Assembly (NCBI GenBank): GCA_050084515.1
Contig: CM114271.1
Location: forward strand, 7,316,001-7,380,000
Reading direction: 5' to 3'
Source: Blasia pusilla
Lineage: Eukaryota
Length of the DNA: 64,000 bases
The position numbers and the translations under genes are program-made. Position 1 is the first letter of the stretch. Each line of letters starts with the position of its first letter. This document shows, piece after piece, positions 2,599 through 62,405 of the stretch. The notes under the pieces are model-generated. The model searched no databases and had not been told where the DNA came from. It saw only the letters and a list, made by a program, of their open reading frames with translations.

Positions 2599-5500
2599 CT
2601 TCTCTGGGATGCACCACACAATCGGGATGGTGTCCAAAGGGGTCATAGCAGCACTCTTTCCTACTTGGAGTTCCTCTAACCAATCACACTCTAGTGCAAA
2701 TGTCTCATTCCACGCTGTCTACACATGCTCAATGGCTAAGCGTCAAAGCTCCTCAGTCAAGCCCCATAGCAGCAACTCTCCTTTACGGAATGATGCGGCT
2801 ACCATAACACTCCTCTCCATATAAATGTCAGGAACGGGAGTATCCTCTGCATGGACATGTCCCTCAATCAAATCACTAGGCCAAGTGATGGCATTACTAA
2901 ATGTTGCTAAGGTCGCCATCTCTCTTGGCCGTTGCTCGATCATTGCACCTGTGAATCGAACGGGTAATGAGATAAGGTGCCCATCACCTGACTACCATCC
3001 TGGTCTGTAGGACGCTGACTCCTTCCAGTTGTCCACGAAAAACCCCATCGGGTATAACATTGCTCCACCAACCAAGACGTCGTAGGACTTTGCATCAGTC
3101 ACTATTGCCTTGGCTCGCACCACGGACTCATCTGTAGGATGTCCCGGGCGAATCCTCACCACGACCTCCTGTCGGGTGATATATTGTGTGGTACTCGCTC
3201 CACCCAAGGATATCTGTATCCGGAATGGACAGCGCTCCACATCGGCTCTCGTCAAGCCCAATCCTCTGAATGACGCTTTCCCCAACATCACGGGTTGCGC
3301 TCTTGAATCCAACAAGACGCGTTGCGGACTAAAAGCTCTACCTCCGGGACTCACCAACTCGAAGACCTCTCCTCGGTTATCCAGCAACACAACACCAAGA
3401 GAAGCCATGGCACACTCTATCGCGGGTTTAGCGGGCATCTCCGCCATCCTAGCAACCGCACCCTGACATAAATCTGAAGTGGACGGCCCAAGCATCCACT
3501 CCAAGGGCAGGTCCATCACCTCCTGTGCAATCACCTCTAGACGTGATGCAAGAACTCCAACTCCGCGCTCACATAGTGAAGCGGCCAGCCAAAAAGCCTC
3601 GGCGGGCATACCCCCCAGCGTCATAACATCGGAAGCAGAAAATAAAGAAGTTGCGATACACAAGGGTGACCATAGAACCCCAACTACTATGTGCTCGAGG
3701 CTTTTTGCCCCTCACTTTTTGGCATCAACAATAGGAGTCGCTTCACTTGTTGAGGCGGTCTTCTCCCATCGCCCTCCGTGCCTGCACACCAACAACATCA
3801 CCAACTCTCGAGGAACTTTGATGAGGACCCATCGATGGGATCCTCATCATTTCGTACAACGTGAAAGACTGAGGAAGCCTAGTCTGTTTTCTGGATTCCC
3901 CTTGTTGTGAATCCAACTCTACAATTACTCCACGGGTCACAAGTCCGGCGGCCTCCATTTGGGCTACCCCGCACATCCAACCAGGATCCTCCATATCTCT
4001 GGCTGCTCCATATGATGTTGATGCCACGGATCCGGAATCGGGTAACCTCAATGCCATAGTAGCAATCAGATATTGTAGCTGCTGTATCTGAGCAGCCATC
4101 CCATCCTCACGTCCGGCGTCTCCCTCGGCCCATCTAGGTGGTGGTACTCTACCTTCTCCACGGGCAGCTCCACCACCCTGTCGGGCAACACCAGCTCCTT
4201 ATCCCCCAACGGGACCACCTGTTGCACGATCTCTAGGCCCACCCGGACCGGCTACTCGCTCTAGTGCCCTCTATGGCCCTCGGTCCGGACGTAACTCAGG
4301 ATGTAAACTGAAATACTAGGCGCGTGTATGACCATACCTCTAACAATAGTCATACTCATAACCTCTTGGTCCAGCACCATCTCCTCCTCCATGATGAGGC
4401 ACACATCCATAATCCTGACGAGTGCAATGGGGCTGATGATGGGCTCCACCATATGACCAACAAGTAATAGTAGGCGACTGCTGCTAAGTCGCATATGAAG
4501 GTGCAGGTCTGTGTGGCACGGCCTCCGGATATCCTCCTTGAGCTCGTGGTGCCATAGTTGACCTATCTCGGAGTCCACGTTATTGCACAGGTGGTGCAAC
4601 CAATCGTGACTCCTCTTGCCCGGAACCCATGGTGGCTACGCTCTCCTCCCCCATGTTGCGCTCAATGTTCTCGGTGGTCCTAAAAACATCTCTCAATGTG
4701 GGGGAGGTGTTCATAAGAAGCACCCGCACCCGTGTCCGCAGGGTCCGGTCCAACATCGCGTACCATGACTGGATAGCCTAAGCCTTCGTCACCCTTTGAG
4801 TGACGTTGATCAACCAATGCAAGCAAGTGTAAGCCTCACGTAAACTCTCATCCAGGCGCCTCTGGAAGTCGTGGATGCTCCGCAACTTCTCCGTCCATAC
4901 TCCTTGGTAGCTGGCCCTCAACTCAACAAAGAACTCAACCACGGGGTTGAACTTAGGACAAACCCGACTAGATGGTCCAAGTGCTCCCGTGTAAGTGACC
5001 CCTCCTAAAACATCACTAGTGGAAGAGGAAGTATCCTCTCTTGACTCCTCCTCCTCATCTGGGAACGGCTCCGTCCATGACACATAGTGTGGGTCATAGT
5101 AGAGTCGCCATGCCTCAATCTCCTAGGCATATCTGTGGGAGAACTCATGGTAATCGTCCATGGGCGCCCCCTCTAAATGGTGGAACATACCGTTCCATGC
5201 TGTAAACGGGTTGAACTCTCTAGAGGTCCTGACCCGCAGGGGGTCGCACCAACTCCTAGACTCTGCTATGAAATCATGCAACTCAATCGTGCCTACTACA
5301 CCTGAAAACCTACGCGGTCTTCTATCCCGGTCATCCATCTTGTACGCCCAACTGGTAGGACCACTCACAATGTATGGCGATGTGCTCACAAACTCCTCTA
5401 CACACTCCTCCTTGTCTGACGATGACACAGAAGGAGGTTGAGGTGGTCCCTCACGTGGAGACCCTCAGAACCTCTTGCCACTCCGCGTAAAACCTCTAGA

Positions 5501-7574: not shown

Positions 7575-7604
7575 CTGTAGGTAATATGGTAAGATAAAAA
7601 AAAA

Positions 7605-17617: not shown

Positions 17618-17717
<100 letters not shown>

Positions 17718-41014: not shown

Positions 41015-41640
41015 TCATAAATTGTCTAACGGTTTCACGACATCATCTTCTACAAATGCTTTAAGATAATTTTTGTACATATTTTGGTTTTCCATATATG
41101 GTGCATTTTGATTCATAGGTCCACATGGGTCATGACTTATAAAATAAAATCGTGAATGAATACATTGATTAAAGGTTTTTACTAAAATTATTTGGTCATA
41201 TTGGGAAGTGGTATTTGATTTATCCTCACGATCTAAAATAGTAGGGACATGCACATGTGGTAGACCCTTCTTTTCTAATTTCACCACATGAATGCATCCT
41301 ACAATTGACCCTCATATTTTCTTTTTGACGATAAGTTGTAACAATTCCTTCTTCTTCTTCGTCTCAAAGACACATATAACCAAATCCGATCTATCAACAG
41401 GTGACTAACCAGGTAAAAATGATATAAACTTTTCCCACTTCGGATTGCATGTCATAGTCAATAAGTAATAAGGGTTTCCAAGTGCCTCACAATTGCCATT
41501 GCATCTTGATACAATTGATGCATATGATGTGGCTCTTCGATGAACGAAGAGGGTAACACAACACGTCTTCCAACCCTTGTGTTATCCACATCATGACGAT
41601 ACATGACATCCTTTACACCTTGATATAAATTATCCCTCAA
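41015..41640 (-). mobile_element. Helitron Rep (HUH) domain fragment, interrupted by element C
   Basis: QLRDNLYQG..VGRRVVLPSSF..MHQLYQDAMAIVR..MTCNPKW..EKKGLPHVH..HDPCGPMN, matching Helitron Rep motifs (LPSSF..YQDAMA, FTCNPKW, QKRGLPHAH, HGPCG). Confidence 0.88.
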
Positions 41641-44607
41641 CGTGTAAATGCGCATACACATCGTTACACAATATACATCATTTGTCACGAACACACACAC
41701 ACAAACACACACGATCCCATGCTAACTCATGGCATCCATACACAGAGGCGAGAAGTACCAAAATATCTCCAATAAAGTAAGATCAAATCTCTCTCTACAC
41801 CATCTCACACCATAGCTCTCAAAGGTGTGCAGTATCTCTCATGTAAAACCAATGTCATGACCATACGGATTATGTCGTAGAGTATGGTGTCTTTGGTAGA
41901 GGCCATTCCTTATGTAGGACCGTAGTGGCTTGGTAGAGATGCGGTTCCATACATAGGGTTGGGGTTACTCACTTGGGGTGACTTTCCCAGAGGGCCCGCT
42001 CTTAGGTTGGAGGATATAAGGTGGCTTGCCCTCAAAGAATAGTCAGTTCTTTGAGTTGAGCTGTGCGTTGGGAGTTAGCCTTGGTAGTGAGTAGAGCTCT
42101 TGGCTATGATGTTTCCAAGCTAAGCCGACCTAGATTCTCCCATCGTGGAGTGGGTTTGGCTCGATTGTATGTGATTGTAAACGTGTTTTATGACATGAGG
42201 TCTTTCACGGATTTCACTCAAAGAACTGGAGTAGATCGATGGTAGCTTCGATTGTAGATCAGTAGGATCTGGTTAGGGCTGATTGTGTACTCAGCCGTGG
42301 ATGTTCGTGGCTTGTGGCCTATGTTGGAGGTGTGAATCTGGTGCGCGGTTGGTTGGGAAAGAAGCGCCTTGCTGAGAGCTTTCCAATGGGCTTTAGATCG
42401 CCGGATTTCGTCAAGGGAGTTGGAAGTTATCAAGGATTGAAGATTCTGGTTCGTGTTCGACGGTTTTCTGATGTGGAGAGCTTGGAGCGCGGAAGCTGTG
42501 TTGAAGTTCATCCAGATCGGGTGAGAGGTTCCCATTGCATCTTGATACAATTGATGCATATGATGTGGCTCTTCGATGAACGAAGAGGGTAACACAACAC
42601 GTCTTCCAACCCTTGTGTTATCCACATCATGACGATACATGACATCCTTTACACCTTGATATAAATTATCCCTCAACTGTGTCGTGCGCATACACATCGT
42701 TACACAATATACATCGCTGTCACCGAACACACACACACAAACACACACGATCCCATGCTAACTCATGGCATCCATACACAGAGGCGAGAAGTACCAAAAT
42801 ATCTCCAATAAAGTAAGATCAAATCTCTCTCTACACCATCTCACACCATAGCTCTCAAAGGTGTGCAGTATCTCTCATGTAAAACCAATGTCATGACCAT
42901 ACGGATTATGTCGTAGAGTATGGTGTGCTGGTAGAGGCCATTCCTTATGTAGGACCGTAGTGGCTTGGTAGAGATGCGGTTCCATACATAGGGTTGGGGG
43001 TTACTCACTTGGGGGTGACTTTCCCAGTAGGGCCCGCTCTTAGGTTGGAGGATATAAGGTGGCTTGCCCTCAAAGAATAGTCAGTTCTTTGAGTTGAGCC
43101 TGTTGCGTTGGGAGTTAGCCTTGGTAGTGAGTAGAGCTCTTGGCTATGATGTTTCCCGCAAGCTTCGACCTAGATTCTCCCATCGTGGAGTGGGTTTGGC
43201 TCGATTGTATGTGATTGTAAACGTGTTTTATGACAGTAGGTCTTTCACGGATTTCACTCAAAGAACTGGAGTAGATCGATGGTAGCTTCGATTGTAGATC
43301 AGTAGGATCTGGTTAGGGCTGATTGTGTACTCAGCCGTGGATGTTCGTGGCTTGTGGCCTATGTTGGAGGTGTGAATCTGGTGCGCGGTTGGTTGGGAAA
43401 GAAGCGCCTTGCTGAGAGCTTTCCAATGGGCTTTAGATCGCCGGATTTCGTCAAGGGAGTTGGAAGTTATCAAGGATTGAAGATTCTGGTTCGTGTTCGA
43501 CGGTTTTCTGATGTGGAGAGCTTGGAGCGCGGAAGCTGTGTTGAAGTTCATCCAGATCGGGTGAGAGGTTCCCATTGCATCTTGATACAATTGATGCATA
43601 TGATGTGGCTCTTCGATGAACGAAGAGGGTAACACAACACGTCTTCCAACCCTTGTGTTATCCACATCATGACGATACATGACATCCTTTACACCTTGAT
43701 ATAAATTATCCTCAACGTCGTGCGATACACATCGTTACACAATATACATCATTTGTCACCGAACACACACACACAAACACACACGATCCCATGCTAACTC
43801 ATGGCATCCATACACAGAGGCGAGAAGTACCAAAATATCTCCAATAAAGTAAGATCAAATCTCTCTCTACACCATCTCACACCATAGCTCTCAAAGGTGT
43901 GCAGTATCTCTCATGTAAAACCAATGTCATGACCATACGGATTATGTCGTAGAGTATGGTGTGCTGGTAGAGGCCATTCCTTATGTAGGACCGTAGTGGC
44001 TTGGTAGAGATGCGGTTCCATACATAGGGTTGGGGGTTACTCACTTGGGGGTGACTTTCCCAGTAGGGCCCGCTCTTAGGTTGGAGGATATAAGGTGGCT
44101 TGCCCTCAAAGAATAGTCAGTTCTTTGAGTTGAGCCTGTTGCGTTGGGAGTTAGCCTTGGTAGTGAGTAGAGCTCTTGGCTATGATGTTTCCCGCAAGCT
44201 TCGACCTAGATTCTCCCATCGTGGAGTGGGTTTGGCTCGATTGTATGTGATTGTAAACGTGTTTTATGACAGTAGGTCTTTCACGGATTTCACTCAAAGA
44301 ACTGGAGTAGATCGATGGTAGCTTCGATTGTAGATCAGTAGGATCTGGTTAGGGCTGATTGTGTACTCAGCCGTGGATGTTCGTGGCTTGTGGCCTATGT
44401 TGGAGGTGTGAATCTGGTGCGCGGTTGGTTGGGAAAGAAGCGCCTTGCTGAGAGCTTTCCAATGGGCTTTAGATCGCCGGATTTCGTCAAGGGAGTTGGA
44501 AGTTATCAAGGATTGAAGATTCTGGTTCGTGTTCGACGGTTTTCTGATGTGGAGAGCTTGGAGCGCGGAAGCTGTGTTGAAGTTCATCCAGATCGGGTGA
44601 GAGGTTC
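41496..44607. repeat. Three tandem copies of a ~1036-1040 bp unit
   Basis: Units start at 41496, 42532 and 43572. Each contains a Helitron piece, the element C terminus and the first ~680 bp of element B; copies are near-identical apart from small indels. Confidence 0.95.
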
Positions 44608-47600
44608 CTGTTGCTACTCATATTGTGATCTCCTGTGAATCTATCTGCTCAAGTGTGTGGAGCGTTGCGGATTTCTGCGTGCATGAAACTTGGCGGAAGC
44701 GCTGTCGGATTTGCGATTCTGGAGGTGTATGGACAGCAAGTTTGTTTGATTTTTAGCTCGGAGTACAGAGCTCGGTTGTAGCTGATTTTTTGTGGAGAGA
44801 TAGCTATGGTGGTCAATTGATCGAAACAGATTTGATTTCGGTCACGTATTTGTGAAGTAATTTCTGATCGAAATTTCGCGGACTAGCTCAAGGTGTGGCT
44901 ATGGTGGACAGCGGATCGGAGGGGCTGGTTGGTTGGTGACTCGTTCATTTTTGGAGACGCCTATCCCGTTGGGGGCGCCCTGGTTGGACCTCTCTCCATA
45001 GCGAAGCATGGCGAGGCTTTGAGGCAACTCGTGGTAGCTCGGGGCGAGTGGGCGTGAGAGGCGGAGTAAGGAGCAAGCAAGCAAGCTTGCTTGCTTGGGC
45101 GTAAGGCAATTTTTGCAGGATTTGGGATTTGAGTTTTGCATAACTGGTCACCCATCTTTGGGCTATTTGCTGGAGGACGCTTAAGCGCCGAGTTCTTAAC
45201 TATGCCGGTGTCTGTTGTTGTAGCTCATTTGGTCTTTGTTAGGAGATGTGTTAGGCGCTTTATGCATCTCAGGTTTTTGGTTGATGTACCTCTAGCGCGC
45301 ATAGTACGGTGTAGCCTCTCCATGCGGTGATATTTTCAGGTCTTGCGCGATTCGACTAGCACGTCATCGACCCGGCGGAGTAGCTATTGCGTTAGAATTG
45401 TGTGGTGGGTTTTGTGGATTCAGAGGGCACCACGTTTGGTGGATTGTGTTACCTTGATTTCTATTTGCGATTGGAGGATTGTCGTTGGATTTCTGTGTTT
45501 GGATCCCCTCCATCGTGCTTCTTGCTTGCGCGCCCATTGTTAGGGTTGACGCTGATTTCGAGTAGTGTTACTCTGTGTGCTACCGGTAGTGAGGTGGAGG
45601 GATGACGAGTAGATTGTGGGAGACTTCTTGTGGTGATGACAAGTTAGGTTGCCTACACCCATAGCTAGTAGAGCTAGAATAGTATAGCGACATCGGCGTC
45701 ACTTGGTAATTTGGTGGTGGTGCGGCATCGGCGTTGGTCATCACGGAGTGTCAAGTGGTCGGTTGGGGACCGTGGTGCGGCGGTGGTGGTTTCACACGGA
45801 GTGGATTTAGGTATCGGCTACCTTTTCCACGCCGACGGTTGATGAAGAGGAGGGCGAGGTGTTCCAAACACCGAGTCTTCTACGTTGTTATCGAGTGTTG
45901 CATCTCCATTGATTTGGGACATGGACGGTGGATATGGGGCCATGAAGGGCCCCTGACGATACTCGGGTGCAAAGTGGGTACCATTGAGTTGGAGGACTTC
46001 ATGCAGGAGTTTGATACGTGGTGTGATATGCAGATGTTGCGTGAACGCCACGTTGTTTACACCCTTCTTGGCTTGGAAGGGTTGTTTCAAAGACTTGGAA
46101 GGACCACCCATGGATGATTACCATGAGTTTAGGAAGGACCATGTTGTTGAGATTGAGGCATGGAGACAATATTGGTCTCAGGCTATGTGTCTATCACCCA
46201 TGGTGGTATTGGTAGTAGTGCTCCTACTATGCCCGGCCCCGACGCCCGAGTGGTACGAGTCGAGCCGGAGTGGGGGTACCGGTGGAGGTACTAGTGGGGG
46301 TACTAGTGGAGGTACTAGTGCCCCACCATCGTTTAGCCCGATTTGCAGAGAGTTCTTCAAGAGGTTGAAGAAGAACTATCAAGGAGTGAAGACGGAGAAG
46401 TTGAGGAATCTTCAGGACTTTGAGCGAAAAGGCGGTGAGAGTCTTCGTGAGGCATACACGCGTATGCGACGCTTGATTTCAGTTATCCAGGGGGTGTGAC
46501 CGAGGATCAGGCGATCAGTTTTGGTATGGGATCTTGGACAAAGATTTGCGCCGTAGGGTACGTGATGCTACTCTTATGAGTGATGATTCACCCACATTGA
46601 CCCATGTGTTTGCTCTATCTCGAGAAGATTGAGCTTAACATGGTGAAGGAGAGAGTGGTGACATCCGCATTCAAAGAGGGATACAACTACTACTTTCGTG
46701 TTCACCGCCCACCTCACAATCTCGTAGTAGTGGTGGTGGTAGTAGTAGTGGGAGTCGTGGGGGTACACGCGACCTCAATCAAGTCCTAGAGGGACATTTG
46801 TGCAGAGACCATTGCCTTCATTTGCTGCCCCGGCAGCAGGGCGATCATGTTGGACATATGGAGGTGATCATGTTAGGAAGTTTTGTCCCCAAGAGGATGG
46901 GAGACGGACTGCGGAGGATAGGCCTCGGTCGGCCCCAACTCGGTGTGATCATTGCGGGAGACTAGGTCATCCTCAAGAGCGTTGCTTTGATCTTCATCCG
47001 AGTTGAGATCAGGCCGTGGCCGTGGTGGGAGTAGCTCCGAGAGGCCAAGGTGGTAAAGGTGGTAGGGGTGGTAGAGGTGGACCGGTGGTTGGAGAGCCTA
47101 CGGTGGCTACCCCTACCACTATGACAGAGTCGACTATGGTCGCTAGGGTTGAGCATTGGAGCGAAGTTGGCTACTATGGCGGTATCCAAAGATAGATCGG
47201 GTTCGGGAGCAGGGGCTTCCACCTCTTATGGAGGGGATGATCTCTCTTATATGGCGAGTGCAAAGACAAAGTTGAGGCATCAGCTGCGATTCAGAGGAGC
47301 CACTCGAGCGTCGAGCCACGTGGTGCTCTTGTGGAGTTGGACCCCTGAGAGGGGTGAGGGGGAGGCAAGGCTAGGCTTCCCCAGTCATTCTTGTTGTATG
47401 AGGTGCTTAGGACTCCATCCATGGTTCCTCGCAGCCTATTGAGCCGACAGTGGGGATCGAGGCATCTACATCGCGTGTAGTAGAGACACGGATGCAACAT
47501 CCAATGCAAAGATTGCGGATGGCAACCGGTGTTGGGATCCCCATTGTTTTCGCCACGGAGCGATGGCTTTAGGAGTTGACTTAGCTCCTGTATTTCCCGA

Positions 47601-48458
47601 TTAGCGACCACGTTGTGTGAACGTGGGGTGTATTCTTGCTACACGTGTTGAGGTGGATGAGGGTGTTGCGGTGGAGCGACCCTCTATGTCGGAGTAGCAT
47701 TGAGTACGGTGCTACTTGGCAAAGCGGCGGGCGAAGATGGATGCATTACCACCGGCCAGCCATTGATCGTGAGAGGCTTACACTGGTGTATGTATGTTGG
47801 ACAACTGGAGTGGGATCTTCCGATTGGTGAGTCCTACAGGACAGGTGTATAGACCAGATAGAGTCTTGTTAGACTCTGGTGCCCAACCTTTGATGTTGGG
47901 AAAGGCGGCATGTATTGGTTTGGGTATTCGGAGGTCAGAGCTTGAGCCTTGCCCATTCCAGATTCAAACATCACTTGGAGGAGCCAATGATAGGTCTCAA
48001 TTCATGACACGGGAGAAGTTTTCTGTACAGTTGAGACCAAATCATGCGACTGATAGCTCCCGGTTGGGAGTATCTGCGGTAGTCACATCAACTGAGTCGT
48101 ATGATGTACTAGTTGGAGGAGCAGTATTGTACCCGATGGGTTTTCAGATGGATTACTAGACCGAGACAGCGTCTTATAGACCAGGTTGGCGGTCCGGGAT
48201 GGACGTATGAGCCAAGTTCTTGTGAGATTTATTTCTGGGGCTCGACCAGGAGGGTCTTCCCCAACAGTGTTAGCATCTGTGGCTGGTTTTAGTGGAGTAG
48301 TCACTTGGCCAGGAGACTTTTTGGAGGGTAATGTTTCTGCTATGGATTCTCCTGCGCATGACGAGGAAGAGGAGGCCCCACGGCGGACTCCTACTTCTGG
48401 CCCAGTTGGGTTATCCCCTTTGGATACTACACCCATTGTATGGCAGTATTCGTCGGAC

Positions 48459-49392
48459 GGCATTTGTGTGTTAGATCTCTTTGGTGGGATTAGCACTGGT
48501 TTGGCTGTAGTGTTGCAGGCCGGTATTCCTGTGCGGAGATACGTGTATGTGGAGCGAGATGAGACGGCCCACAGAGTCTCATCCCGACATATTGGTCGAT
48601 TGATGCGGAGATATCTGAGTTGTTGCCGCCATCAGCTATTCGTGGGTACCAGCGTGCTTTACCATCACACATTGCATTGTTGGGGGCGCAGGACCTTGAG
48701 AGAATTGGTCCTGTGGATTTGGTGATTGCTGGATGGCCATGTCAGGGTCATACACGTGCTGGTGGGGGTGAGGGATTACATGACCCTAGGTCTCGATTGT
48801 TTTGGGAGATGTTACGGGTGTTACGACATCTTGAGTTCATCGAGCACGTGCTCTAGCTTACATTCGGAGAATGTTCCATTGTTGGGTGACACTCGGACCG
48901 GATGATGGCGAGTGTTCATGAGGTGCGCTCTTGGATTGGACCAGCGGTGTTGTTGGATGGAGCGCGAGTTGGCTCAGCGTGTACATAAATCCACGCTTGT
49001 GGTGGACAAACTTGTTGCCTAGGGAGGTTCTCGTCGAGCATATGATGCGATGGCGGTATCCTCGCTTCGATGGATAGTATCTTGAATCTTGGCGACTTTC
49101 CCAAGTGGTGAGGGTTATTGATCGGTCACCCATGGCGGTGGTGAACCGTGTGGGCCAGCCTAGGATGGCACTACCCACATTTGTGAGTTTTCCTCGTCAC
49201 ATGCCTACAGGAAGGTGGTCGGGGCTTGTATGGGATTCTCATGTGCGGCGAGTTGGTGGAGCCTAACGCTGATGAGAGAGCGTGCGATGGGATTTGCTCT
49301 TGGTGTGACAACGGTTGCTTCTATTTTCGAGGCTTCACGACGTCATGTGTTGGGTCAGGCCATGGACCTGAATTGTTTGACTTGGATTTTTA
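48459..49392 (+). pseudogene. DNMT3-like C5 cytosine methyltransferase domain of element B (frameshifted as assembled)
   Basis: GICVLDLFGGISTGL (I), YVYVERD (II), DLVIAGWPCQG (IV, catalytic Cys intact), GLHDPRSRLFWEMLRVL, ENVP (VI), WWTNL (VIII), ERAMGF..SRRHVLGQAMD (IX/X). Confidence 0.93.
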
Positions 49393-49973
49393 GTCTTGGT
49401 ATGGCGAGCAAAGCGTCGACTTTGGACTATGTCTGTGGGTCTTCCACCCCTTGTAATGAGCTCGATGGCTCTGGGGACGGTAGAGGCATCGGCTGAAGCG
49501 AGGAGAGTAGTATTTTGCATCCTTGGAGTAGATGGGATGTAATGGTGGGCATGTGGAGTTGGTTGCTCATCTTTGCTGGTGGATGAGTTATTTGCTCGAG
49601 ATGATGGTGTAGCTAAGGGTGTACCATCTTGTGAGGGGGTTATGAGCGACCAATGGCATCGCCCTCTCCCTCTAGTGTGCCAGTGGAGGAGACTTGGGAG
49701 CCATTACTTGGGCCCAAGCTTACGGGAGGTGAGAAACGACGCTTGACACACTTCCTACGTGCTTATAGGAGTTGTTTTGCCTTTAGCATGAAGGAGTTGG
49801 GTTCTCTGGTTGGACCTGGTATACGGATTGATTTGGCTAGTGATACGCCAATCTTCCGTCATCCCTACCGATATAGTGATATGGAGAGGGACTTGATTCA
49901 GAGTAGGACGTTGGACCTTTTGGAGGCTGGATTAGTGGAGTTGTCCCATGGAGAGTATGCATAAGCCACTGTC

Positions 49974-51107
49974 ATGCCTGCTAAAAAGGATATGCATGGC
50001 AACTACACGGATAGGCGGATGTGTGGAGATTACCGTCCTATCAATCGGCAAACCAAGGCCGATAGGTATGCCATGCCTACACCTGAGGAGATCTTTGATG
50101 TGGTGGGACAAGCAAAGATTTTCAGTACTTTGGATCTTCGGGCAGGATACCATCAATTGCTGATTCGGGAGAGTGACAAGGCCAAGACAACATTTTGGGG
50201 TGTCAACTCTCATGGCAAGGATTGTTTGTACCAGTGGAAATTCTTACCCTTTGGGTTGAAGAATGCACTGCCGAGTTTCAAGAGTGATGGATGGAGGATC
50301 CTAGCAGGGTTGGATTTTGTTCGGTGTTACATTGATGATATCTTGGTGTTCAGTAACACGGTGGAGGAGCATCAGATACATTTGCAGATGGTGTTTGAGC
50401 GGTTGAAAGCTCATGGTCTACGTTTGCATCCAGGAAAGTGTAAGTTCTTCCATGAGGATGTTGAGTACTTGGGTCATGTGATCTATCCAGGTGGTTTGGG
50501 AGTTCAGCAAGCAAAGGTGGAGGCTATTGCACTTATTCCGCGTCCGATAGATGTGAGTAGAGTTCGAGCATTCATGGGATTGGCGAACTACTATCGGAGG
50601 TATGTGAAGGGATTTAGTGCTATGGCAAAGCCTTTGAACCAATTGCTGAAATCAGATCAAAAGTGGCACTGGGGAGATGATCAGGAGAGAGCTTTTGTGG
50701 AGCTTAAGGCCCAGTTGGTGGCGGCGCCTATCTTGAGGAGACCTATCAGAGGGTGCCCATTTCAGTTACACACTGATTGGAGTAGGTTGGGACTTGGAGC
50801 GGTGTTGACACAACATGATGATGAGCACATGGAGTTTGTGGTGGCCTATGCAAGTCGTTCGAATAATGCAGCAGAGTCGCGCTATAGTTCATATGAGGGA
50901 GAGTGCTTGGCAATAGTGTGGGCTGTGGCACACTTTAGGTGTTACTTGTTTGGCACAAAATTTACCCTTGTTACTGATCACCAGCCGCTCAAGTGGTTGA
51001 TGGAGTCGGACAAGCTTACAGGGAAGCTTGCACGGTGGGCTCTTATCTTACAGGAGTATGACTTCCAGGTGGTACATAGACCTGGAGTTGCCAACCTTGA
51101 TCTTTGA
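49974..51107 (+). CDS. Reverse transcriptase + RNase H segment of element B pol
   Basis: CGDYRPIN, LDLRAGYHQL, LPFGLKNA, YIDDILVFS, TDWSRLGLGAVL, TDHQPLKWL. Confidence 0.95.
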   Translation: MPAKKDMHGNYTDRRMCGDYRPINRQTKADRYAMPTPEEIFDVVGQAKIFSTLDLRAGYHQLLIRESDKAKTTFWGVNSHGKDCLYQWKFLPFGLKNALPSFKSDGWRILAGLDFVRCYIDDILVFSNTVEEHQIHLQMVFERLKAHGLRLHPGKCKFFHEDVEYLGHVIYPGGLGVQQAKVEAIALIPRPIDVSRVRAFMGLANYYRRYVKGFSAMAKPLNQLLKSDQKWHWGDDQERAFVELKAQLVAAPILRRPIRGCPFQLHTDWSRLGLGAVLTQHDDEHMEFVVAYASRSNNAAESRYSSYEGECLAIVWAVAHFRCYLFGTKFTLVTDHQPLKWLMESDKLTGKLARWALILQEYDFQVVHRPGVANLDL

Positions 51108-52618
51108 TGGGTTGAGTAGGAACCCATGTACTAGCCAAGAGGATACAAGCGGGGCTAGATGGCATGGCGAGGTTGATGAGGAGATGGTGCCAGGTTGGCA
51201 TGCATCCGCCTTTTATGTTGGTTAGGTGGACTCTAGTATGGAGGACCACATGATATCTTACTCTAGTCGAGGGTAGATGGCCGGCCTTGAGATCCTAAGG
51301 TTGGAGATGGTGGTACGGATCACCGTGATATTCATGATGATGCGTTGGTGTTGGAGTTCCCTACGGATCAAGTAGGGTGCGGACATAGTGAGTGCCAAGG
51401 AGCGAGACCGTGTTCTTCAACGTGCTAAGAGGTATCGATTGGAGGGAACACATATTCTCCGCGTATGGGAGGATGGTAGAGTACAGTAGTGCCACATTTG
51501 ACTCGAGAGAGAGCGCATTGTGCGACATGCCCATGAGGAGTTGGGACATTTTGGGGTAAAGCGCACGTATAGCTTACTCCTTGGCGATTGGTGGCGTGGC
51601 ATGCATACTCAGGTGCAGCGATTGGTGTCACGTTGTATGGTTTGTGACCGGGTGAGGGCATCATTTAATGCCCCTACACCACAATTATACCCCTTGCCTA
51701 TTATAGGGTTGGGTTACCGTTGGAGTGTGGACTTTTTGGGACCGTTACCTTTTTGACCGACATCATCGATATGTGTTGGTGATGGTGGAGCACTTCTCCA
51801 AGTGGATTGAGTTGGTGGCATTACCGGACAAGGCAAGTGAGGAACGGCGTATGCGTTTCTGGATAGAGTGCTTAGTCATTTTGGTGCACCACCGGCTGAA
51901 GTCTTTGACCGACCACCGAGGTCTGAGTTTCAAGGTGAGTTTCAGGTCTTGTGTGACAAGGGGTTGATTGATCATCGGACCACGTCTCGAGATCATCCAG
52001 AGGCGGATGGTTTGGCTGAGCGTGTGGTTCAGACGGTGAAGAGGGCATTGCGCAAGTATGGCCTATAGAAGGGGCATCTTGGAGACTAGGATATTCAGTT
52101 GCCATGGTTAGCCATCGGGTATAGGTTGATCGCCAAGCATCCTTGGCTTCCTTCTCACCTTATTTTTGTTATCGGCCGAGATCCGGACTTGCTAGCAAAG
52201 CAATTCGTTGGGAGTCTAGTGAGGTGGTGAACCTTGATGACCCGAGAGATGTGGATGAGGGTGTGTTCTCGGGCGGAGCTCTTCGGAGAGTTATGCCAAC
52301 GGCCTTTGAGAATCTTGCCATTGCTCAACACGGGGATACGTTGCGGTATGCAACCATTGGGTGGAGGTTATCGACCATCGATTCAGAGGTTCCATGTGGG
52401 GACTATGTCTTTGGCAGCACATTGCCCGACAACGTTGGATGTGACGACAGGCCGCACTATTTTACGAGTGCGTGAGGTGTTAGCTTCTGGAGTTCTCATG
52501 TTGGAGGGTCGTGATGGAGTTGTTTGGAAGGACCATGTGCGTAATTGTGCGCCATATCATCTTCCAAATGTGGATGGTACTGTTGACCCAAGCTTAGCCA
52601 TGATACGTGCTAGCTAGC

Positions 52619-52765
52619 TTGAGGTGCATGTTGTGTGGATATGCTGGTAACGCAGCCTGTATGTTGGTGTGTGATCGGTGTTCTAGGGGTTGGCACATGA
52701 TGTGTTTGACTCCACGTTTGGATGTTGTTCCTACTGGAAGGTGGGTTTGTCCTCGATGTACTTAG
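52619..52765 (+). other. PHD finger at the pol C-terminus of element B
   Basis: LRCMLCGYAGNAACMLVCDRCSRGWHMMCLTPRLDVVPTGRWVCPRCT* (C4HC3). Put out of frame here by a 4-bp TAGC duplication; in frame with the integrase tail in element C. Confidence 0.93.
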
Positions 52766-54675
52766 GAGAGGTAGATGACTTGATCTTTGCATGATATGGA
52801 TTACAGATGTGCGACTTACGATGGGGCAACCTAGCACCCGGCCTTCTGATTTGGGCATCCAAGAAGGTGTATAGCATGTAGTAGATGTATAGGGCTACCA
52901 GGAGTTAGAGGACCTAACCGCTTGATTAGGGGGCGAGTTGTGGTACACTTGCGTTTGTGGATACTCTCGTCTATGTTATGTATGTATGTGCGTATGGTAT
53001 GTCAGCGATGTATGTTGTATGACGATGTGGATTCGCACGACAGCTGTCATGACCATACGGATTATGTCGTAGAGTATGGTGTGCTGGTAGAGGCCATTCC
53101 TTATGTAGGACCGTAGTGGCTTGGTAGAGATGCGGTTCCATATATAGGGTTGGGGGTTACTCACTTGGGGGTGACTTTCCCAGTAGGGCCCGCTCTTAGG
53201 TTGGAGGATATAAGGTGGCTTGCCCTCAAAGAACAGTCAGTTCTTTGAGTTGAGCCTGTTGCGTTGGGAGTTAGCCTTGGTAGTGAGTAGAGCTCTTGGC
53301 TATGGTGTTTCCCGCAAGCTTCGACCTAGATTCTCCCATCATGGAGTGGGTTTGGCTCGATTGTATGTGATTGTAAACGTGTTTTATGACAGTAGGTCTT
53401 TCACGGATTTCAGTTGTGGTACACTTGCGTTTGTGGATACTCTCGTCTATGTTATGTATGTATGTGCGGATGGTATGTCAGCGATGTATGTTGTATGAAG
53501 ATGTGGATTCGCACGACACCAAACCCACTCTCCTAATGAGAGGCTTGGGTTACATTCACAAGGCAAGGGACCATAGCTCCGTCGCTTCATGCCAAGAGGT
53601 TCAACAAAGAGAGAATGAGCTCTCTCCTCTCCCCTTGAGGTATACCCCTCCCCTCTCCCAAGCTCTCTCCATGGTAACCTATTCTCCCAAGTCATCTCCT
53701 TGGCTCTTGACCCGATGTAGGAGGTCAAGGGCCACTTACCAAAAATAAAAATTCGATCATATACTCAAAATGGTACTTACCTAAAATAGTAAGTTCCTCA
53801 ATATGGCTCCAAATGAGTTGAAACGAAGGGGAAACCTGCTCTCTCACATTTCCCAAGACCTTAGCAAGTCATCCTTGACCTACTGAGCCTGTCCTCCACT
53901 ACTCACGAAGGTGCTCTACTACATCTTACCGATCTATCCTAAAAGACGTGACAGTTGTCGTGCGCATACACATCGCTGTCACCGAACACACACAAAAACA
54001 CACACGATCCCATGCTCACTCATGGCATCCATACATAGAGGCGAGAAATACCAAAATATGTCCAATCGCCCCTCTAGTTGGTGGTTAGGTCACTGTAACT
54101 CCAAATAGCCATCTATCCCTACCTACCACGACATACACCTCTAGGACGCTAAGAGCAGAAAGATCAAGTGCTCATGTGGCCCCATCGTTAGTCGCCTTTC
54201 TGTCATCCATGTCACAAAAAAATTCGGAATCGAAACCTACCTAGTATCTCCTCTATGTACATCTGGGACACATCCATCGTCCCCGAGGAACCCTAGTGAG
54301 AGGTGGTGTCAGACATGCCATATGCCAACCTCTCAAACATCCATCACAGACTAGCATCCTGGCCGCACCACCAGGAGATCCACATAACATACAACGCAAA
54401 CTTGCAGGAACTACTGCTGAGCTCACATCTACTGTACCATCAATGGTAGGAAGGTGACATGGCGCATAATTATGCACATGGTCCTTCCATACCATACCAT
54501 CGCGTCCCTCCAGCAAGAGAACACCAGAGGGCAAAACGTCACGCACTCTCAGGATAGTGCGCCTTGCAGTCACATCCAACATCGTCAGTGCCGTCTGCTG
54601 CAAGTAGACATAATCTCCCTGATGAAACCTCCAGATAGTTGGTCGATAACCACCACCCCGAATAGTTGCGCGCAC

Positions 54676-56614
54676 GTCTCTAGGATGTGAGGCATACGAA
54701 AGAGGGCCTTTTCGGCGCTCGGTTTAAGTCCACTTAAGAAGATCACCTTTTTCATATGTTCATCCGTGGAAAGTGCACTCATGAGTGCACTAAACTCTTG
54801 CACATAAGCGCCAAGGGATCCGCTCTGGCGTAACCTCACAACCTCCATGCCATTGCAATACTCCTGATATTCCAGAGTGAATCGGTTCCCAATCAACTCC
54901 TTGAAATCTTCCCAACTCAACGTTTTCCCACGGCCTAGATGTTCTTTACGGTGAGCCGTCCATCAATGGAGAGCGTGATTCTTCAGAAACGTAACGTGAC
55001 CGCCACAGTTACCTTGTCTTGTTCATCTGCCTTTTGTGCTTCGAAATAAAGTTCGAGTTCCGTTAGAAACTCGCTCACTTTCCAAGGACGCCCCATTCCT
55101 GTGAATGGCGTTGGCAAATTTGTCTTACAAAGCTTCTTGTCGAAACTAGAGGCTCCATTTGACTTGAATTCCATTATCACCTTGCTGTGTTCGGCCATCT
55201 GGTTCGCCATCACCTTCATCAATCCCATCATTTGGATATAAAAGGCCGGATCGTTTGAGTTTGGAATCGAAGGTCCCGCGGAAAGATTTTCGGTTGGAAC
55301 ATCCTCATGTCTATGACTTGGCACTTTGGGAGTCGCCATTTCCACCTTTGGCTCTCGGTCCGTCATTGATTCGTCTCTTGGTTTTTTTGCTTTGACTCGC
55401 GGTTTCCTCAGTTCTTCGCCCTTGGTCGCCATTTGCAAGTCTTCCCTTTCTCAGATCTCCTCCCCGCCTCTTGTGTTCCTCCTTGGGCGTCGCGGTCTTC
55501 CGGCTACCTTGAGTTCTCCCCAAACGTCCAGATCTTCTAGGACCCCAAGCTCACGCTCATCAAGGATTAGCTCTGATACCACGTGCTGTGCGCCTACTCT
55601 CCTTGAACGTTAATCTTGTTTGTTGCGGAAGCGTGCGTTCAGTAGGTCACGCTCTCAACGCTGATCTGCATCCTAACACGTCCTCTGGTTAGTCGGGTCT
55701 TGGATCAATCAACGGGCTAACTTTTTGAGTTCTCGTCTCGGACTCTCATCAAGCTCAACCTTCCTAGTTTCGCGGTTTACAACACGGGCAAGTCTCGAAA
55801 GACTTGGGACAGACTTTCTGGTCGGTTCAGGAACCTAAAACGGCGTTTCGCGCCTGGCGATTCCAACTGTCTGATGGACATCCAATTAGTTCCTCACCAA
55901 GACTCGCACGAAGTGAATCTCGGGTTGGAATCCAAGTGTGGCGTACAAAGTCTACTCCCTTGGATCAGGTTTGGGTTTCGAGTTCCAACGCCAAACTCCC
56001 ATTCCATCACGTGCCTTTGAAACGCCGTTTGGTGCCCAAAGTGGGGATTCGTGTTCCAAGACATCTTGGAGAGATTCCTCCCTTACTAGTACTTCTGGGG
56101 ATCTCCGGGGCCCCCCTACATTTAGGGAAAGACACCCGGGCCTCTCGAATTGGCCCTCAACCCGATTGCTCTCACAATTTTTTCTGGCCAATATCTCAGC
56201 ATGTACGTATGATTTTGCTAAGATCTTTAATGAGTTGGAAGCATCTCAAGATAAGCTTTCCAACGTGCCCTTACTTGTTCCGAATGCAGCTTGGAGCTCA
56301 ACGTTATGGTCCTAAACACAGTCACATTCTCCCAAACGCTAGTCGTGTTCCAAATTGGTTCTCACCTCTTTGGCAACCAACCTCCCAAGACTCAACTCAT
56401 CTCAAGTCTTGGTTCGCGTTTGGTCTAGGTTTCCTGGTCGCGATCACTAACGCATGAAACGCACAACTCTGTTCCGCATTTCGTCTCTTAGACTTTTCCA
56501 AGAGACTTTTCCAAACGCCTCTCCAAAGCGCAAACCTCGCAGCGTGAGTTCACTTGAGTTCTGATGTTTCGCTTGGCGCCTATTTGGTGTTGTTTGGTTA
56601 TGAGGGTCGCGACA
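54676..56614 (-). mobile_element. Element D: truncated Gypsy element (5' LTR, PBS, gag)
   Basis: LTR-like 56614 (TGTCGCGACCC) to ~55584, PBS TGGTATCAGAGC at 55570-55581, retrotransposon gag (PTPFTG..FLTELELYF; SWEDFKE..LRQSGSLGAYVQEF..FLSGLKP). Fused directly to the element C integrase tail. Confidence 0.85.
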
Positions 56615-62397: not shown

Positions 62398-62405
62398 TTT
62401 AGAGG

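What the first reader, a model, noticed from the sequence alone, without database searches (positions are those of the whole stretch)
48459..49392. DNMT3-type cytosine methyltransferase embedded in pol between protease and RT
Seen: all main C5-MTase motifs occur in order, at the same position, in two diverged copies (B here; A at 1655-2598). The C-terminal motifs (LDxAxVGSxAHRxxLxWTNL; ERxMGFPxGxT..SxASRRHVLG) resemble DNMT3 (IDA..VSAAHRARYFWGNL; ERVFGFPVHYT..RQRLLG) rather than DRM/CMT/MET1, and the motif order is not permuted as in DRM. From memory, retrotransposon-borne DNMTs have been reported in dinoflagellates (DNMT5-type) and the charophyte Klebsormidium (DNMT3-type). The cargo is therefore not unprecedented, but a recently active family in an apparent land plant is notable. 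Inference: the enzyme is packaged with pol and methylates new cDNA or insertions.
Basis: partly seen in the sequence, partly recalled or inferred. Interest (0 to 1): 0.88.

Follow-up and report, generated by a model that had tools for sequence, protein, structure and literature searches.

The report
Liverwort retrotransposon carrying DNMT3-like methyltransferase
Two broken copies of a jumping gene that carries its own DNA-methylating enzyme sit in this liverwort DNA; such elements were described in a freshwater alga, and here they prove widespread in liverworts and mosses.

Summary
Copy B (+ strand, 48405-49400) and copy A (minus strand, 2655-1532) carry C5-methyltransferase motifs I, IV, VI, VIII, IX and X in canonical order between protease and RT of a Ty3/gypsy element. 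One B piece hits PF00145. Solved DNMT3A/B/C are the closest structures by sequence, profile and fold.

Neither copy is coding-competent as assembled. B has about 50 frameshifts and 10 stops. A has about 6 frameshifts and 21 stops, with the catalytic PCQ changed to PRQ.

A host kinase places the window in a complex thalloid liverwort. Relatives occur in Marchantia, Calypogeia, Sphagnum and 142 metagenome stretches.

Intact relatives show this plan: ORF1 Gag-protease-DNMT, a conserved in-frame TAG, then ORF2 RT-RNaseH-integrase-PHD. Repeats follow the A...B-A-B order that de Mendoza 2018 describe for KnitGypsy-Dnmt3 of Klebsormidium.

DNMT dN/dS falls to 0.2-0.3 between distant copies, which indicates purifying selection.

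This is a new member, in new hosts, of a known kind. Methylation of the element's own cDNA remains inference.

The parts
43925..44293 (+). Copy B, 5' terminal repeat R1 ('A1'); starts TGTCATGACC and ends ..GGATTTCA
   Evidence: 98.9% identical to 53045-53412 without gaps. The left end is fixed by the empty-site comparison.
43920..43924 (.). Target-site duplication ACCAA, left copy (right copy at 53518-53522)
   Evidence: A related unoccupied W repeat at 22028-22047 holds a single ACCAA.
45921..47521 (+). Copy B gag-like region with two CCHC-type knuckles (about 46845-46998)
   Evidence: 64% identity to Marchantia P0008 residues 1-520, with 18 frameshifts and 3 stops. The CxxC..H..C strings are visible in ORF 46749-47006.
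47770..48160 (+). Copy B aspartic protease-like region (VLLDSGAQ)
   Evidence: ORF 47773-48159 aligns to the protease region of P0008. This piece has no Pfam hit. Relative L079 scores PF13650 at 22.4 bits, below the 24.3 cut-off. PF13650 is precomputed for P0076, P0077 and P0085.
48405..49400 (+). Copy B DNMT3-like C5 cytosine methyltransferase domain (the finding), broken
   Evidence: PF00145 on 48563-48853. Read-through alignment gives 65% identity to P0008, with 12 frameshifts and 1 stop over 48405-49644. 14 B-specific frameshifting indels against 9 relatives.
49620..49660 (+). Copy B: the place of the ORF1/ORF2 boundary, noisy
   Evidence: Relatives have ..KVFA-TAG-CAA-CCC-ATG-GCA here. 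B reads ..TAT-GAG-CGA-CCA-ATG-GCA, with a TGA four codons upstream.
49806..51313 (+). Copy B reverse transcriptase and RNase H. ORF 49965-51107 is open for 380 aa and holds YIDD.
   Evidence: PF00078 8e-25, PF17917 4e-37, PF17919 1e-31. 2 frameshifts and 2 stops over the whole span.
51294..52620 (+). Copy B integrase (H2C2 zinc domain and DDE core), broken
   Evidence: 58% identity to L079 ORF2, which carries PF17921 and PF00665. 12 frameshifts and 3 stops over 51294-52807.
52625..52762 (+). Copy B PHD finger at the integrase C-terminus
   Evidence: PF00628 at E 7e-10. Best PDB matches are the PHD fingers of CHD4, MLL3/KMT2D, ATXR5, DPF2/3, KDM5A and PHF21A.
52938..53042 (+). Copy B repeat X1 ('B1'), preceded by the G-rich tract AGGGGGCGAG
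   Evidence: 98% identical to 53412-53518.
53045..53413 (+). Copy B repeat R2 ('A2')
53414..53517 (+). Copy B repeat X2 ('B2'), the 3' end of the element (..CGCACGAC)
   Evidence: It is followed by the ACCAA target duplication.
1532..2655 (-). Copy A DNMT3-like domain, broken; catalytic PCQ reads PRQ
   Evidence: 55% identity to P0008 in one frame over 320 codons. 3 frameshifts and 7 stops over 2655-1410. ORFs.
2626..5347 (-). Copy A gag and protease regions
   Evidence: 42-44% identity to P0008, with 1 frameshift and 9 stops.
1..1465 (-). Copy A RT and RNase H, running off the window start. About 100 codons spanning the ORF1/ORF2 boundary are deleted.
   Evidence: 73% nt identity to B 49872-51214. 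2 frameshifts and 5 stops in RT. The sequence reads ..YPWTSWDDLQVRQKYSDMER...
54083..54723 (-). Copy C: fragment of a third family member (integrase C-terminus and PHD finger), abutting the W-repeat flank about 565 bp beyond B's 3' end
   Evidence: 70.6% nt identity to B 52350-52919 in inverted orientation. A 156-aa ORF holds the PHD cysteines.

Best explanation
The window holds two decayed full-size copies (A, B) and one fragment (C) of a Ty3/gypsy-type retrotransposon family of bryophytes. The family carries a DNMT3-like C5 cytosine methyltransferase and is of the same kind as KnitGypsy-Dnmt3 of Klebsormidium.

Shown from intact relatives:
- The element encodes ORF1 = Gag(CCHC)-protease-DNMT.
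- A conserved in-frame TAG follows it.
- ORF2 = RT-RNaseH-integrase-PHD finger comes next.
- Repeats are ordered A...B-A-B, and insertion makes a 4-5 bp target duplication.

Inferred:
- The TAG is leaky. Most ribosomes would make Gag-protease-DNMT and a minority the full fusion. The methyltransferase would then be made in Gag-like amounts and enter the particle as part of the Gag-containing precursor.
- There, or in the pre-integration complex, it methylates the newly made cDNA.
- The PHD-integrase steers insertion to H3K4-unmethylated chromatin.
- The new copy therefore arrives already marked and is kept by host maintenance enzymes.

The domain is under purifying selection in the family's active lineages. 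The copies in this window cannot make it as assembled.
For: Identity of the domain:
- PF00145 hits: the B piece at E 1.5e-7, L079 ORF1 at 1.8e-13, P0008 at 8.9e-9 and P0069 at 9.1e-12.
- DNMT3A/B/C are 25 of 27 PDB hits, the first 29 of 52 profile hits, and every Foldseek match listed to rank 50 at TM 0.39-0.77 by target (the AF2 model has pLDDT 62.5 and pTM 0.70).

Family size and spread:
- 71 proteins found with the B piece. Of these, 12 are named Marchantia polymorpha, 3 Calypogeia fissa and 2 Sphagnum troendelagicum.
- 142 of 243 metagenome stretches are confirmed relatives.
- 394 clusters at 50% identity reach E<=1e-30.

Architecture:
- L079 has open ORFs of 1369 and 1047 aa in one frame, split by one stop. 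It is the only one of 32 loci of at least 9 kb with both ORFs open.
- Their Pfam domains are PF00145 in ORF1, and PF00078, PF17917, PF17921, PF00665 and PF00628 in ORF2.
- 25 database proteins are Gag-protease-DNMT ORFs that end less than 220 aa after the DNMT.
- The stop is present in 32 of 33 motif matches: TAG in 25 and TAA in 7. It is followed by CAA CCC in 28, and by CAA CCA, CAA CCT, CAA CTC or CAG TTA in one each.

Selection:
- DNMT dN/dS is 0.88 at dS<0.1, 0.31 at dS 0.7-1.2 and 0.21 above that, over 2828 pairs.
- The RT control on the same pairs gives 0.59, 0.22 and 0.11.
- winB against 39 loci gives 0.29 for DNMT and 0.20 for RT.
- Pairs of open DNMT frames, L004 or L006 against L036, give 0.17-0.18.

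Kinship with the Klebsormidium element:
- The A...B-A-B repeats are seen in B, L080 and L041, with target duplications ACCAA/ACCAA, ACATA/ACATA and AAACA/AAATA.
- The paper gives 'A-coding region-B-A-B' as the DIRS arrangement and says the K. nitens Gypsy has that repeat structure.
Against: - Both window copies are broken. In A the catalytic cysteine is replaced.
- No enzyme activity is known for any Gypsy-DNMT3. The K. nitens domain gave no methylation in yeast (PMC5890265 section 10).
- No Klebsormidium sequence was compared directly here, and none appeared by name.
- No host DNMT3, DRM, DNMT1 or CMT sequence was in my tree. 'DNMT3-type' therefore rests on similarity to solved animal enzymes, not on a rooted phylogeny.
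- Leakiness of the TAG, packaging of the enzyme, cDNA as its substrate and the histone mark read by the PHD finger are all inferred.
- The TRD-equivalent part of the model is of low confidence: pLDDT below 50 for residues 245-255 and 260-305.
Confidence: 0.8

Rival explanations
1. Copy B belongs to a defective, non-autonomous sub-lineage. Its roughly 50 frameshifts were inherited from a broken master copy, and intact relatives amplified it in trans. In that sub-lineage the DNMT would be dispensable in cis.
For: - B has a perfect target duplication and repeats 98.9% and 98.1% identical with no gaps. Yet it has about 50 frameshifts in 6.9 kb of coding sequence. Decay after insertion at that indel rate should also have put about 4 indels into the 950 bp of repeats.
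- None of the 12 indel rows shown (of 40) in the read lay coincides with B's frameshift sites or approaches full share, while many substitutions do.
Against: - Natural decay in this family is dominated by stops: 0-10 stops and 0-4 frameshifts per DNMT in 80 loci, and 7 stops to 1 frameshift in A. B shows 9 frameshifts and 0 stops.
- Once frames are bridged, B looks conserved: 76% identity to P0001 and dN/dS 0.24-0.29.
- 28 indel rows were not shown, and the tool says some differences in X1 were not counted.
Confidence: 0.35
2. B's frameshifts are assembly errors: small indels left unpolished in a young, high-copy repeat. The real copy B would then be largely intact and the family currently active.
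For: - The lesion spectrum is dominated by indels, mostly 1-bp deletions (10 deletions against 4 insertions among the 14 frameshifting events). There are almost no stops in the bridged frame.
- The best-holding run has only 70% of B's sampled 31-mers.
- Contigs of other runs differ from B by gap counts similar to B's frameshift load in the same spans. X2 record 21 has 13 gaps over 49253-50035. X10 record 10 has 2 gaps over 48361-48865.
Against: - Copy A in the same window has the normal stop-dominated pattern.
- Indels are very uneven along B: none in the 1143-bp RT ORF or between the repeat pairs.
- No indel row with near-full share appears among those shown.
Confidence: 0.4
3. The enzyme acts on RNA, giving m5C on the element's genomic RNA or its primer, or serves only as a nucleic-acid-binding module. 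It would not methylate cDNA.
For: - It is fused to Gag, an RNA-binding protein.
- The K. nitens domain gave no DNA methylation in yeast, and de Mendoza 2018 raise RNA methylation for the LINE-borne DNMT.
Against: - Similarity to DNMT2 (tRNA methyltransferase) is far weaker than to DNMT3: 23 against 41-55 bits.
- Catalytic motifs IV, VI and VIII are invariant or nearly so in 10 aligned relatives, which argues against a purely structural role.
- SymbioDIRS-Dnmt3 domains do methylate CG in DNA.
Confidence: 0.15
4. The DNMT is a piece of a host DNMT3 gene that lies next to retrotransposon genes by chance, through nested insertion or local capture limited to these copies.
For: Bryophytes have host DNMT3 genes (PMC6453930 and 10.1101/2021.02.12.428880, passages read).
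Against: - The same order Gag-protease-DNMT-stop-RT recurs in continuous open frames in L079 and in 25 ORF1-type proteins.
- It recurs in two window copies that share only 65% nt identity.
- It recurs in 142 metagenome stretches.
- No PWWP or ADD domain is found.
- dN/dS is well below 1.
Confidence: 0.02

Closest known systems
KnitGypsy-Dnmt3 of Klebsormidium nitens (de Mendoza et al. 2018, PMC5890265; abstract, sections 9-11 and figure legends read; figures and supplements not seen)
   Same: - Gypsy-type domain set with a non-permuted, intronless DNMT3-like domain in the polyprotein.
- Repeats in the DIRS-like order A...B-A-B.
- Purifying selection on the DNMT: Ka/Ks below 0.2 in the paper, 0.17-0.31 between distant copies here.
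   Different: - The hosts here are land plants: a complex thalloid liverwort, plus Marchantia, Calypogeia and Sphagnum by name.
- Copy number appears very high.
- I could not compare sequences directly, nor see whether the K. nitens DNMT sits before RT or after RNase H, or whether it has the stop and the PHD finger.
SymbioDIRS-Dnmt3 of Symbiodinium (same paper)
   Same: A retrotransposon-borne DNMT3-like domain with A-coding-B-A-B repeats. It is shown to methylate CG de novo in yeast.
   Different: A DIRS element with a tyrosine recombinase and no target duplication. The elements here have a DDE integrase (PF00665 in relatives) and 4-5 bp target duplications.
Host DNMT3A/3B/3C of animals (solved structures)
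   Same: The closest catalytic domains by sequence, profile and fold, with about 20-24% identity in structural alignment. The motif order is the same.
   Different: The TE enzyme has no PWWP or ADD domain. It is fused to Gag-protease. A PHD finger lies elsewhere, on the integrase.
RT-RNaseH-DNMT-integrase-PHD elements (unnamed proteins in the representative library)
   Same: A homologous DNMT domain (at least 207 bits to the same profile) and the same integrase-PHD module.
   Different: The DNMT sits between RNase H and integrase. This holds for 72 of 250 proteins that hit the DNMT profile. In an unrooted FastTree these form a separate 114-row group (support 93, not starred). The group with the DNMT ahead of RT has 63 rows (support 88) and holds the window copies.
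Chromoviruses (Ty3/gypsy with a chromodomain on the integrase; recalled, and cited in 10.64898/2026.05.21.726589, passage read)
   Same: A histone-reader module at the C-terminus of the integrase.

Membership tests
C-5 cytosine DNA methyltransferase (Pfam PF00145) | Profile match above the gathering score | tested here: met
   Window piece 48563-48853 scores 31.6 bits against a cut-off of 22. L079 ORF1 scores 51.1 bits, P0008 35.6 and P0069 45.5.
C-5 cytosine DNA methyltransferase (Pfam PF00145) | Catalytic motifs I (FxGxG), IV (PCQ), VI (ENV), VIII, IX and X present in canonical order | tested here: met
   They are present in order in B, A and 10 relatives. In the window copies they are disrupted: PRQ in A, and frameshifts within motif VIII in B.
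DNMT3 family | Catalytic domain closer to DNMT3 than to DNMT1/CMT, DNMT2, DRM or bacterial enzymes | tested here: met
   Among solved structures only. DNMT3A/B/C score 41-55 bits, chain 4onj_A ('DNA methyltransferase') 27, HaeIII/HhaI 24, DNMT2 23 and chains named DRM2 18.7. No DNMT1 or CMT at E<=1. All Foldseek matches listed to rank 50 are DNMT3.
DNMT3 family | Placement inside the DNMT3 clade in a rooted tree with host DNMT3, DRM, DNMT1, DNMT5 and others | not tested
   No named host DNMT sequences could be fetched. De Mendoza 2018 place the K. nitens TE copies in 'a more divergent clade' of Dnmt3.
DNMT3 family | N-terminal PWWP and ADD reader domains of canonical DNMT3 | tested here: not met
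   Pfam on L079 ORF1, P0008 and P0069 finds only PF00145, plus a weak protease hit. This is a TE-borne catalytic domain, not a canonical DNMT3 protein.
Ty3/gypsy (Metaviridae) LTR retrotransposon | Order protease-RT-RNaseH-DDE integrase | tested here: met
   The DNMT is inserted between protease and RT.
Ty3/gypsy (Metaviridae) LTR retrotransposon | Two identical LTRs flanked by a short target duplication | tested here: inconclusive
   A target duplication is present in 3 of 3 copies with both ends seen. The repeats, however, are A...B-A-B rather than LTR...LTR.
Gypsy-DNMT3 of streptophytes (KnitGypsy-Dnmt3) | Gypsy domains, a DNMT3-like domain in the polyprotein, DIRS-like A...B-A-B repeats and purifying selection | tested here: met
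   set against the paper's text.
Gypsy-DNMT3 of streptophytes (KnitGypsy-Dnmt3) | Sequence-level monophyly with the K. nitens elements | not testable with these tools
   No K. nitens sequence was reachable. None is named among the hits. The paper's supplements are closed.

The most novel reading that the evidence does not exclude
Gypsy-DNMT3 is not a Klebsormidium oddity. It would be an ancient streptophyte-wide retroelement lineage, diversified to hundreds of 50%-identity clusters and two domain orders. In bryophytes, including the model Marchantia polymorpha, it makes a DNMT3-like enzyme as the C-terminus of the Gag-protease ORF, upstream of a leaky TAG, and so in Gag-like amounts. In liverworts where it reaches very high copy number, this TE-borne enzyme would contribute measurably to de novo methylation of TEs, or of the genome in the tissues where the element is expressed.
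Probability: 0.3. Interest if true: 0.75.

Novelty: new member of a known kind. Interest (0 to 1): 0.55.

Why it matters
Retrotransposons that carry the enzyme normally used to silence them are a paradox. So far it has been documented experimentally only in dinoflagellates, and the single streptophyte case (Klebsormidium) gave no activity.

The same kind of element is abundant in liverworts and mosses, and open Gag-protease-DNMT frames are annotated in Marchantia polymorpha. That moves the question into a genetically tractable land plant with methylomes and DNMT mutants.

The ORF layout suggests concrete tests of how such an element uses methylation. The DNMT sits at the end of the Gag-protease ORF, a conserved TAG-CAA-CCC lies before RT, and the integrase carries a PHD finger.

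The specific copies in this window are dead relics and are not remarkable in themselves.

Tried and rejected
- Whole-genome search: no genome is held for this window. No census of copies in the source genome was possible.
- Earlier findings of this scan: nothing by place or by sequence.
- Pfam on single MTase pieces: 4 of 5 gave nothing, so I moved to read-through alignment against intact relatives.
- CpG observed/expected: 0.69-0.83 in A and B, 0.51-0.85 in background. This is not informative on methylation-driven decay.
- Finding Klebsormidium relatives by name: none among 71 hits or 49 hits.
- Finding host DNMT3s through the representative library: the best 150 all score at least 207 bits over most or all of the domain. 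Of the 250 family proteins held carry retroelement context. No outgroup could be drawn from the list.
- Expression: no RNA holder listed. Four rows were only guessed to be RNA, and their contigs cannot show transcription.
- Read lay as a test of B's frameshifts: no verdict. Only 12 of 40 indel rows were shown, and the tool says some X1 differences were not counted.
- Search for A's terminal motifs (TGTCATGACCATA, ATTCGCACGACA): only B's own repeats and W-repeat look-alikes turned up. A's 5' end was not defined.
- L079 and L077 contigs show no terminal repeats, so the repeat plan of that distant clade is unknown.
- Primer-binding site: the sequence after R1 (CTCAAAGAAC.., conserved in L080 and L041) does not start with TGG, and I did not identify a primer.
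- Literature: searches found no paper that describes DNMT-bearing retrotransposons in liverworts or mosses. PMC12344493 and preprint 10.64898/2026.05.21.726589 (passages read) only cite 'streptophytes (Gypsy-DNMT3)' from de Mendoza 2018. Subscription journals and supplements were not searchable.
Full report
**1. What is at the coordinates**

The + strand around 48459-49392 has no long open frame; the region is split over all three frames. One 97-aa piece, 48563-48853, holds ..DLVIAGWPCQGHTRAG..RSRLFWEML.. and hits Pfam PF00145 (E 1.5e-7, 31.6 bits, cut-off 22). The other four MTase pieces give nothing alone.

Downstream lie an open 380-aa RT/RNase H frame at 49965-51107 (PF00078, PF17917, PF17919) and a PHD finger at 52604-52762 (PF00628).

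B 48638-49393 matches A 2419-1653 at 65.5%, and B 49872-51214 matches A 1465-133 at 73%. A therefore runs off the window start. A third, inverted fragment (C, 54083-54723) matches B's integrase end at 70.6%.

**2. The domain read through its breaks**

I aligned the intact Marchantia protein P0008 to the DNA with a frameshift-aware aligner. The translation is the window's own codons, with marks at the breaks.

- B gives 65% identity over 406 codons with motifs I, IV, VI, IX and X readable. It has 12 frameshifts and 1 stop between 48405 and 49644.
- A gives 54% identity with 3 frameshifts and 7 stops. Its motif IV reads PRQ instead of PCQ (tblastn view).

Across the coding region B has about 50 frameshifts and 10 stops:

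| Region of B | Frameshifts | Stops |
|---|---|---|
| gag | 18 | 3 |
| protease-linker (further to gag) | 6 | 1 |
| DNMT | 12 | 1 |
| RT-RNaseH | 2 | 2 |
| integrase-PHD | 12 | 3 |

A has about 6 frameshifts and 21 stops over what is visible.

**3. What family this is**

- The 97-aa piece finds 71 proteins (E<=1e-3; 336 candidates scored). Twelve are named Marchantia polymorpha, three Calypogeia fissa and two Sphagnum troendelagicum, at 71-84% identity. More distant unnamed proteins of 1331-1775 aa are at 47-61%.
- The full sequences show Gag with CCHC knuckles, a D-S-G protease and the DNMT. The ORF ends about 90-150 aa after the DNMT.
- A scan of JGI metagenome contigs with an alignment of ten relatives (A1) gave 243 pattern matches. 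Of these 142 were confirmed and 80 kept. B matches them at 76-80% nt identity over 4-8.4 kb.
- A profile search of 1.84 billion representatives gave 6005 hits at E<=1e-3, 1358 at <=1e-10 and 394 at <=1e-30. The best 150 all score at least 207 bits.

The domain is therefore not a local capture.

**4. Host**

No genome is held. The intronless kinase ORF at 31498-32676 is 84% identical to MpMAPKKK24 of Marchantia polymorpha. It is 82% and 79% identical to Riccia proteins, 72% to Calypogeia and 64% to Sphagnum. The window is thus from a complex thalloid liverwort other than M. polymorpha.

**5. DNMT3-type?**

- phmmer of P0008 against all PDB chains gives 27 sequences: 25 are DNMT3A/B/C, one is M.HaeIII and one is 4onj.
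- The A1 profile gives 52 sequences. The first 29 are DNMT3A/B/C (41-55 bits). Then come 4onj at 27 bits, HaeIII/HhaI at about 24, DNMT2 at 23 and DRM2 at 18.7. No DNMT1 or chromomethylase appears at E<=1.
- An AlphaFold2 model of P0001 is of middling quality (pLDDT 62.5, pTM 0.70, core well predicted, TRD-like part poor). Every Foldseek match listed to rank 50 is DNMT3A/B/C, with TM up to 0.77 by target.
- Motif order is canonical, not permuted as in DRM.
- No PWWP or ADD domain is present.
- I could not add host DNMT3/DRM sequences to a tree. Clade membership therefore rests on de Mendoza 2018 for the Klebsormidium copies, and here on similarity only.

**6. Plan of the intact element**

Among the 32 loci of at least 9 kb, only L079 has both long frames open: 976-5082 (1369 aa) and 5086-8226 (1047 aa). 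They are in the same frame and split by one stop.

Pfam gives PF00145 (plus a weak aspartyl-protease hit) in the first frame. The second has RVT_1, RT_RNaseH, Integrase_H2C2, rve and PHD.

In every copy whose frame can be followed, a single in-frame stop lies at the same place..SPKVFA*QPMASS....APKVAA*QPVLK.. or ..LSATD*QLEAV... A motif search finds it in 32 of 33 matches, as TAG in 25 and TAA in 7. It is followed by CAA CCC in 28, and by CAA CCA, CAA CCT, CAA CTC or CAG TTA in one each.

From memory, UAG-CAR-YYA is the leaky-stop context of tobamoviruses. L079 and L036 fit it exactly and the main clade fits in five of six bases. Readthrough is my inference.

Twenty-five database proteins are ORF1-type: at least 600 aa lie before the DNMT and the protein ends less than 220 aa after it.

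In A about 100 codons spanning this boundary are deleted. In B the site is noisy.

**7. Ends of the element**

B is bounded by a 5-bp duplication, ACCAA. A related repeat elsewhere in the window (W, 21838-22154) is unoccupied and holds one ACCAA. This fixes B at 43925-53517.

Its repeats are R1 (43925-44293), X1 (52938-53042), R2 (53045-53413) and X2 (53414-53517), that is A...B-A-B. R1/R2 are 98.9% identical and X1/X2 98.1%, both without gaps.

The same plan and a target duplication recur in L080 (ACATA/ACATA) and L041 (AAACA/AAATA). The X|R joint reads GACA-GC-TGTC in B, a palindrome that joins the element's two termini. In L080 and L041 it reads GACA-GC-TATC. A G-rich tract precedes X1.

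De Mendoza 2018 define 'A-coding region-B-A-B' as the DIRS arrangement. They state that the K. nitens Gypsy has that repeat structure with Gypsy domains. This shared oddity is my strongest link to KnitGypsy-Dnmt3. How a DDE-integrase element maintains such repeats is unexplained.

**8. Selection**

I took codons from the bridged alignments of 78 copies.

| Synonymous distance (dS) | DNMT dN/dS (2828 pairs) | RT dN/dS (864 shared pairs) |
|---|---|---|
| below 0.1 | 0.88 | 0.59 |
| 0.7-1.2 | 0.31 | 0.22 |
| above 1.2 | 0.21 | 0.11 |

- B against 39 loci gives 0.29 for DNMT and 0.20 for RT.
- A against B gives 0.22, though dS is saturated.
- Open frames L004 or L006 against L036 give 0.17-0.18, and L077 against L079 gives 0.14.

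Values near 1 between close copies are what decay after insertion produces. The low values between distant copies show constraint on the transposing lineages. The values are Nei-Gojobori estimates from my own script and include post-insertion decay, so the true constraint is stronger.

**9. Two domain orders**

Of 250 proteins that hit the DNMT profile, 72 have the DNMT after RT and RNase H and before the integrase (Pfam on P0250 and P0235). Thirteen have it before RT and 25 are ORF1-type.

In an unrooted FastTree of 182 rows, the rows with the DNMT ahead of RT (including A, B, Marchantia, Calypogeia and L079) form a 63-row group with no RT>DNMT member (support 88). The RT>DNMT rows form a 114-row group (support 93). 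Neither support is starred.

A and B lie in a 20-row clade with support 100, together with Marchantia, Calypogeia and the moss-like loci. I left out domain rows covering less than about 280 profile positions and all kinase hits.

**10. Is the family recently active, and why is B so broken?**

Public runs hold very many pieces at least 95% like B 47700-51200: 68,849 from X1, 1,129 from X5, 102 from X2 and 21 from X10. All 30 bins are covered in X1 and X5. These are contigs, so depth is not copy number.

B's lesion spectrum is odd. Its DNMT has 9 frameshifts and no stop. The 80 loci have 0-4 frameshifts and 0-10 stops, and A has 1 and 7. Fourteen B-specific frameshifting indels, mostly 1-bp deletions, are seen against nine relatives. 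None falls in the repeats or the RT ORF.

Two readings fit: unpolished assembly indels in a young repeat, or inheritance from a defective master copy. The read lay could not decide between them. Decay after insertion alone is unlikely, because the repeat pairs have no indel.

**11. How it most likely works**

Shown: the domain plan, the conserved stop, the constraint on the DNMT, the PHD finger and the target duplication.

Inferred:
- Leaky TAG readthrough gives much Gag-protease-DNMT and little full fusion.
- The DNMT enters the particle with Gag and methylates the new cDNA.
- The PHD finger guides integration. Its best PDB matches are the PHD fingers of CHD4, KMT2C/D, ATXR5, DPF2/3, KDM5A, PHF21A and AIRE. 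From memory these are mostly readers of unmethylated H3K4.

I put the cDNA-methylation step at about 35-40%. The only tested relative, from K. nitens, was inactive in yeast, which the authors call inconclusive. SymbioDIRS-Dnmt3 domains do methylate CG.

**12. Novelty**

Gypsy-DNMT3 is known from K. nitens, and later papers speak of 'streptophytes (Gypsy-DNMT3)'. Five full-text searches found no description in liverworts or mosses, nor of the Gag-protease-DNMT ORF with its conserved stop, nor of the integrase PHD finger. Supplements and subscription journals were out of reach.

I file it as a new member, in new hosts, of a known kind. The window copies themselves are relics.

Noticed in passing
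window 41507-44614: A 1036-bp segment spanning B's 5' junction (W-repeat flank, R1 and 321 bp of leader) is present three times in tandem at 95-100% identity. It is either a duplication after insertion or an assembly artefact.
   Followed up: partly
window 52938-53517; L080 14634-15203; L041 14621-15163: The repeats are ordered A...B-A-B although the element has a DDE integrase and makes a target duplication. The internal B|A joint (GACA-GC-TGTC in B, a palindrome; GACA-GC-TATC in L080 and L041) joins the element's two termini, as a two-LTR circle junction would. A G-rich tract sits just before B1. The replication mechanism is unexplained.
   Followed up: partly
window 7090-7574, 21838-22154, 43718-43924 with 53518-54082: An unclassified repeat 'W' occurs at least three times. 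B is inserted into one copy. Its left part resembles the reverse complement of the element's X end (74%), so W may be a relic of related element termini.
   Followed up: partly
L001-L080, e.g. L004 1470, L079 5083: A conserved in-frame stop lies between DNMT and RT: TAG or TAA followed by CAA CCC in 28 of 33 matches, and by CAG TTA in L079. It resembles the tobamovirus-type leaky context CARYYA (recalled).
   Followed up: partly
proteins P0250, P0235, P0246: A large sister group of elements carries the homologous DNMT between RNase H and integrase instead of between protease and RT. Either the module moved within the element or it was acquired twice from close sources.
   Followed up: partly
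window 13999-17719 (minus strand): An unrelated, AT-rich Ty3/gypsy element (integrase, RT/RNase H and gag ORFs) with no sign of a DNMT. It is flanked by (GA)n/(CT)n runs near 17312-17745.
   Followed up: no
window 31453-32679 (+): A 408-aa open frame without introns, encoding a Raf-like/STY-type protein kinase. It is 84% identical to MpMAPKKK24 and is the only clear host gene seen.
   Followed up: partly
window 54585-55450 (minus strand): Gag-like ORFs of another retroelement lie directly beside fragment C, so this area is a nest of insertions.
   Followed up: no
window 60934-62398 (minus strand): A tandemly repeated ORF-like sequence (recurring ..RLRQALLNEYSLS.. units) of unknown nature.
   Followed up: no
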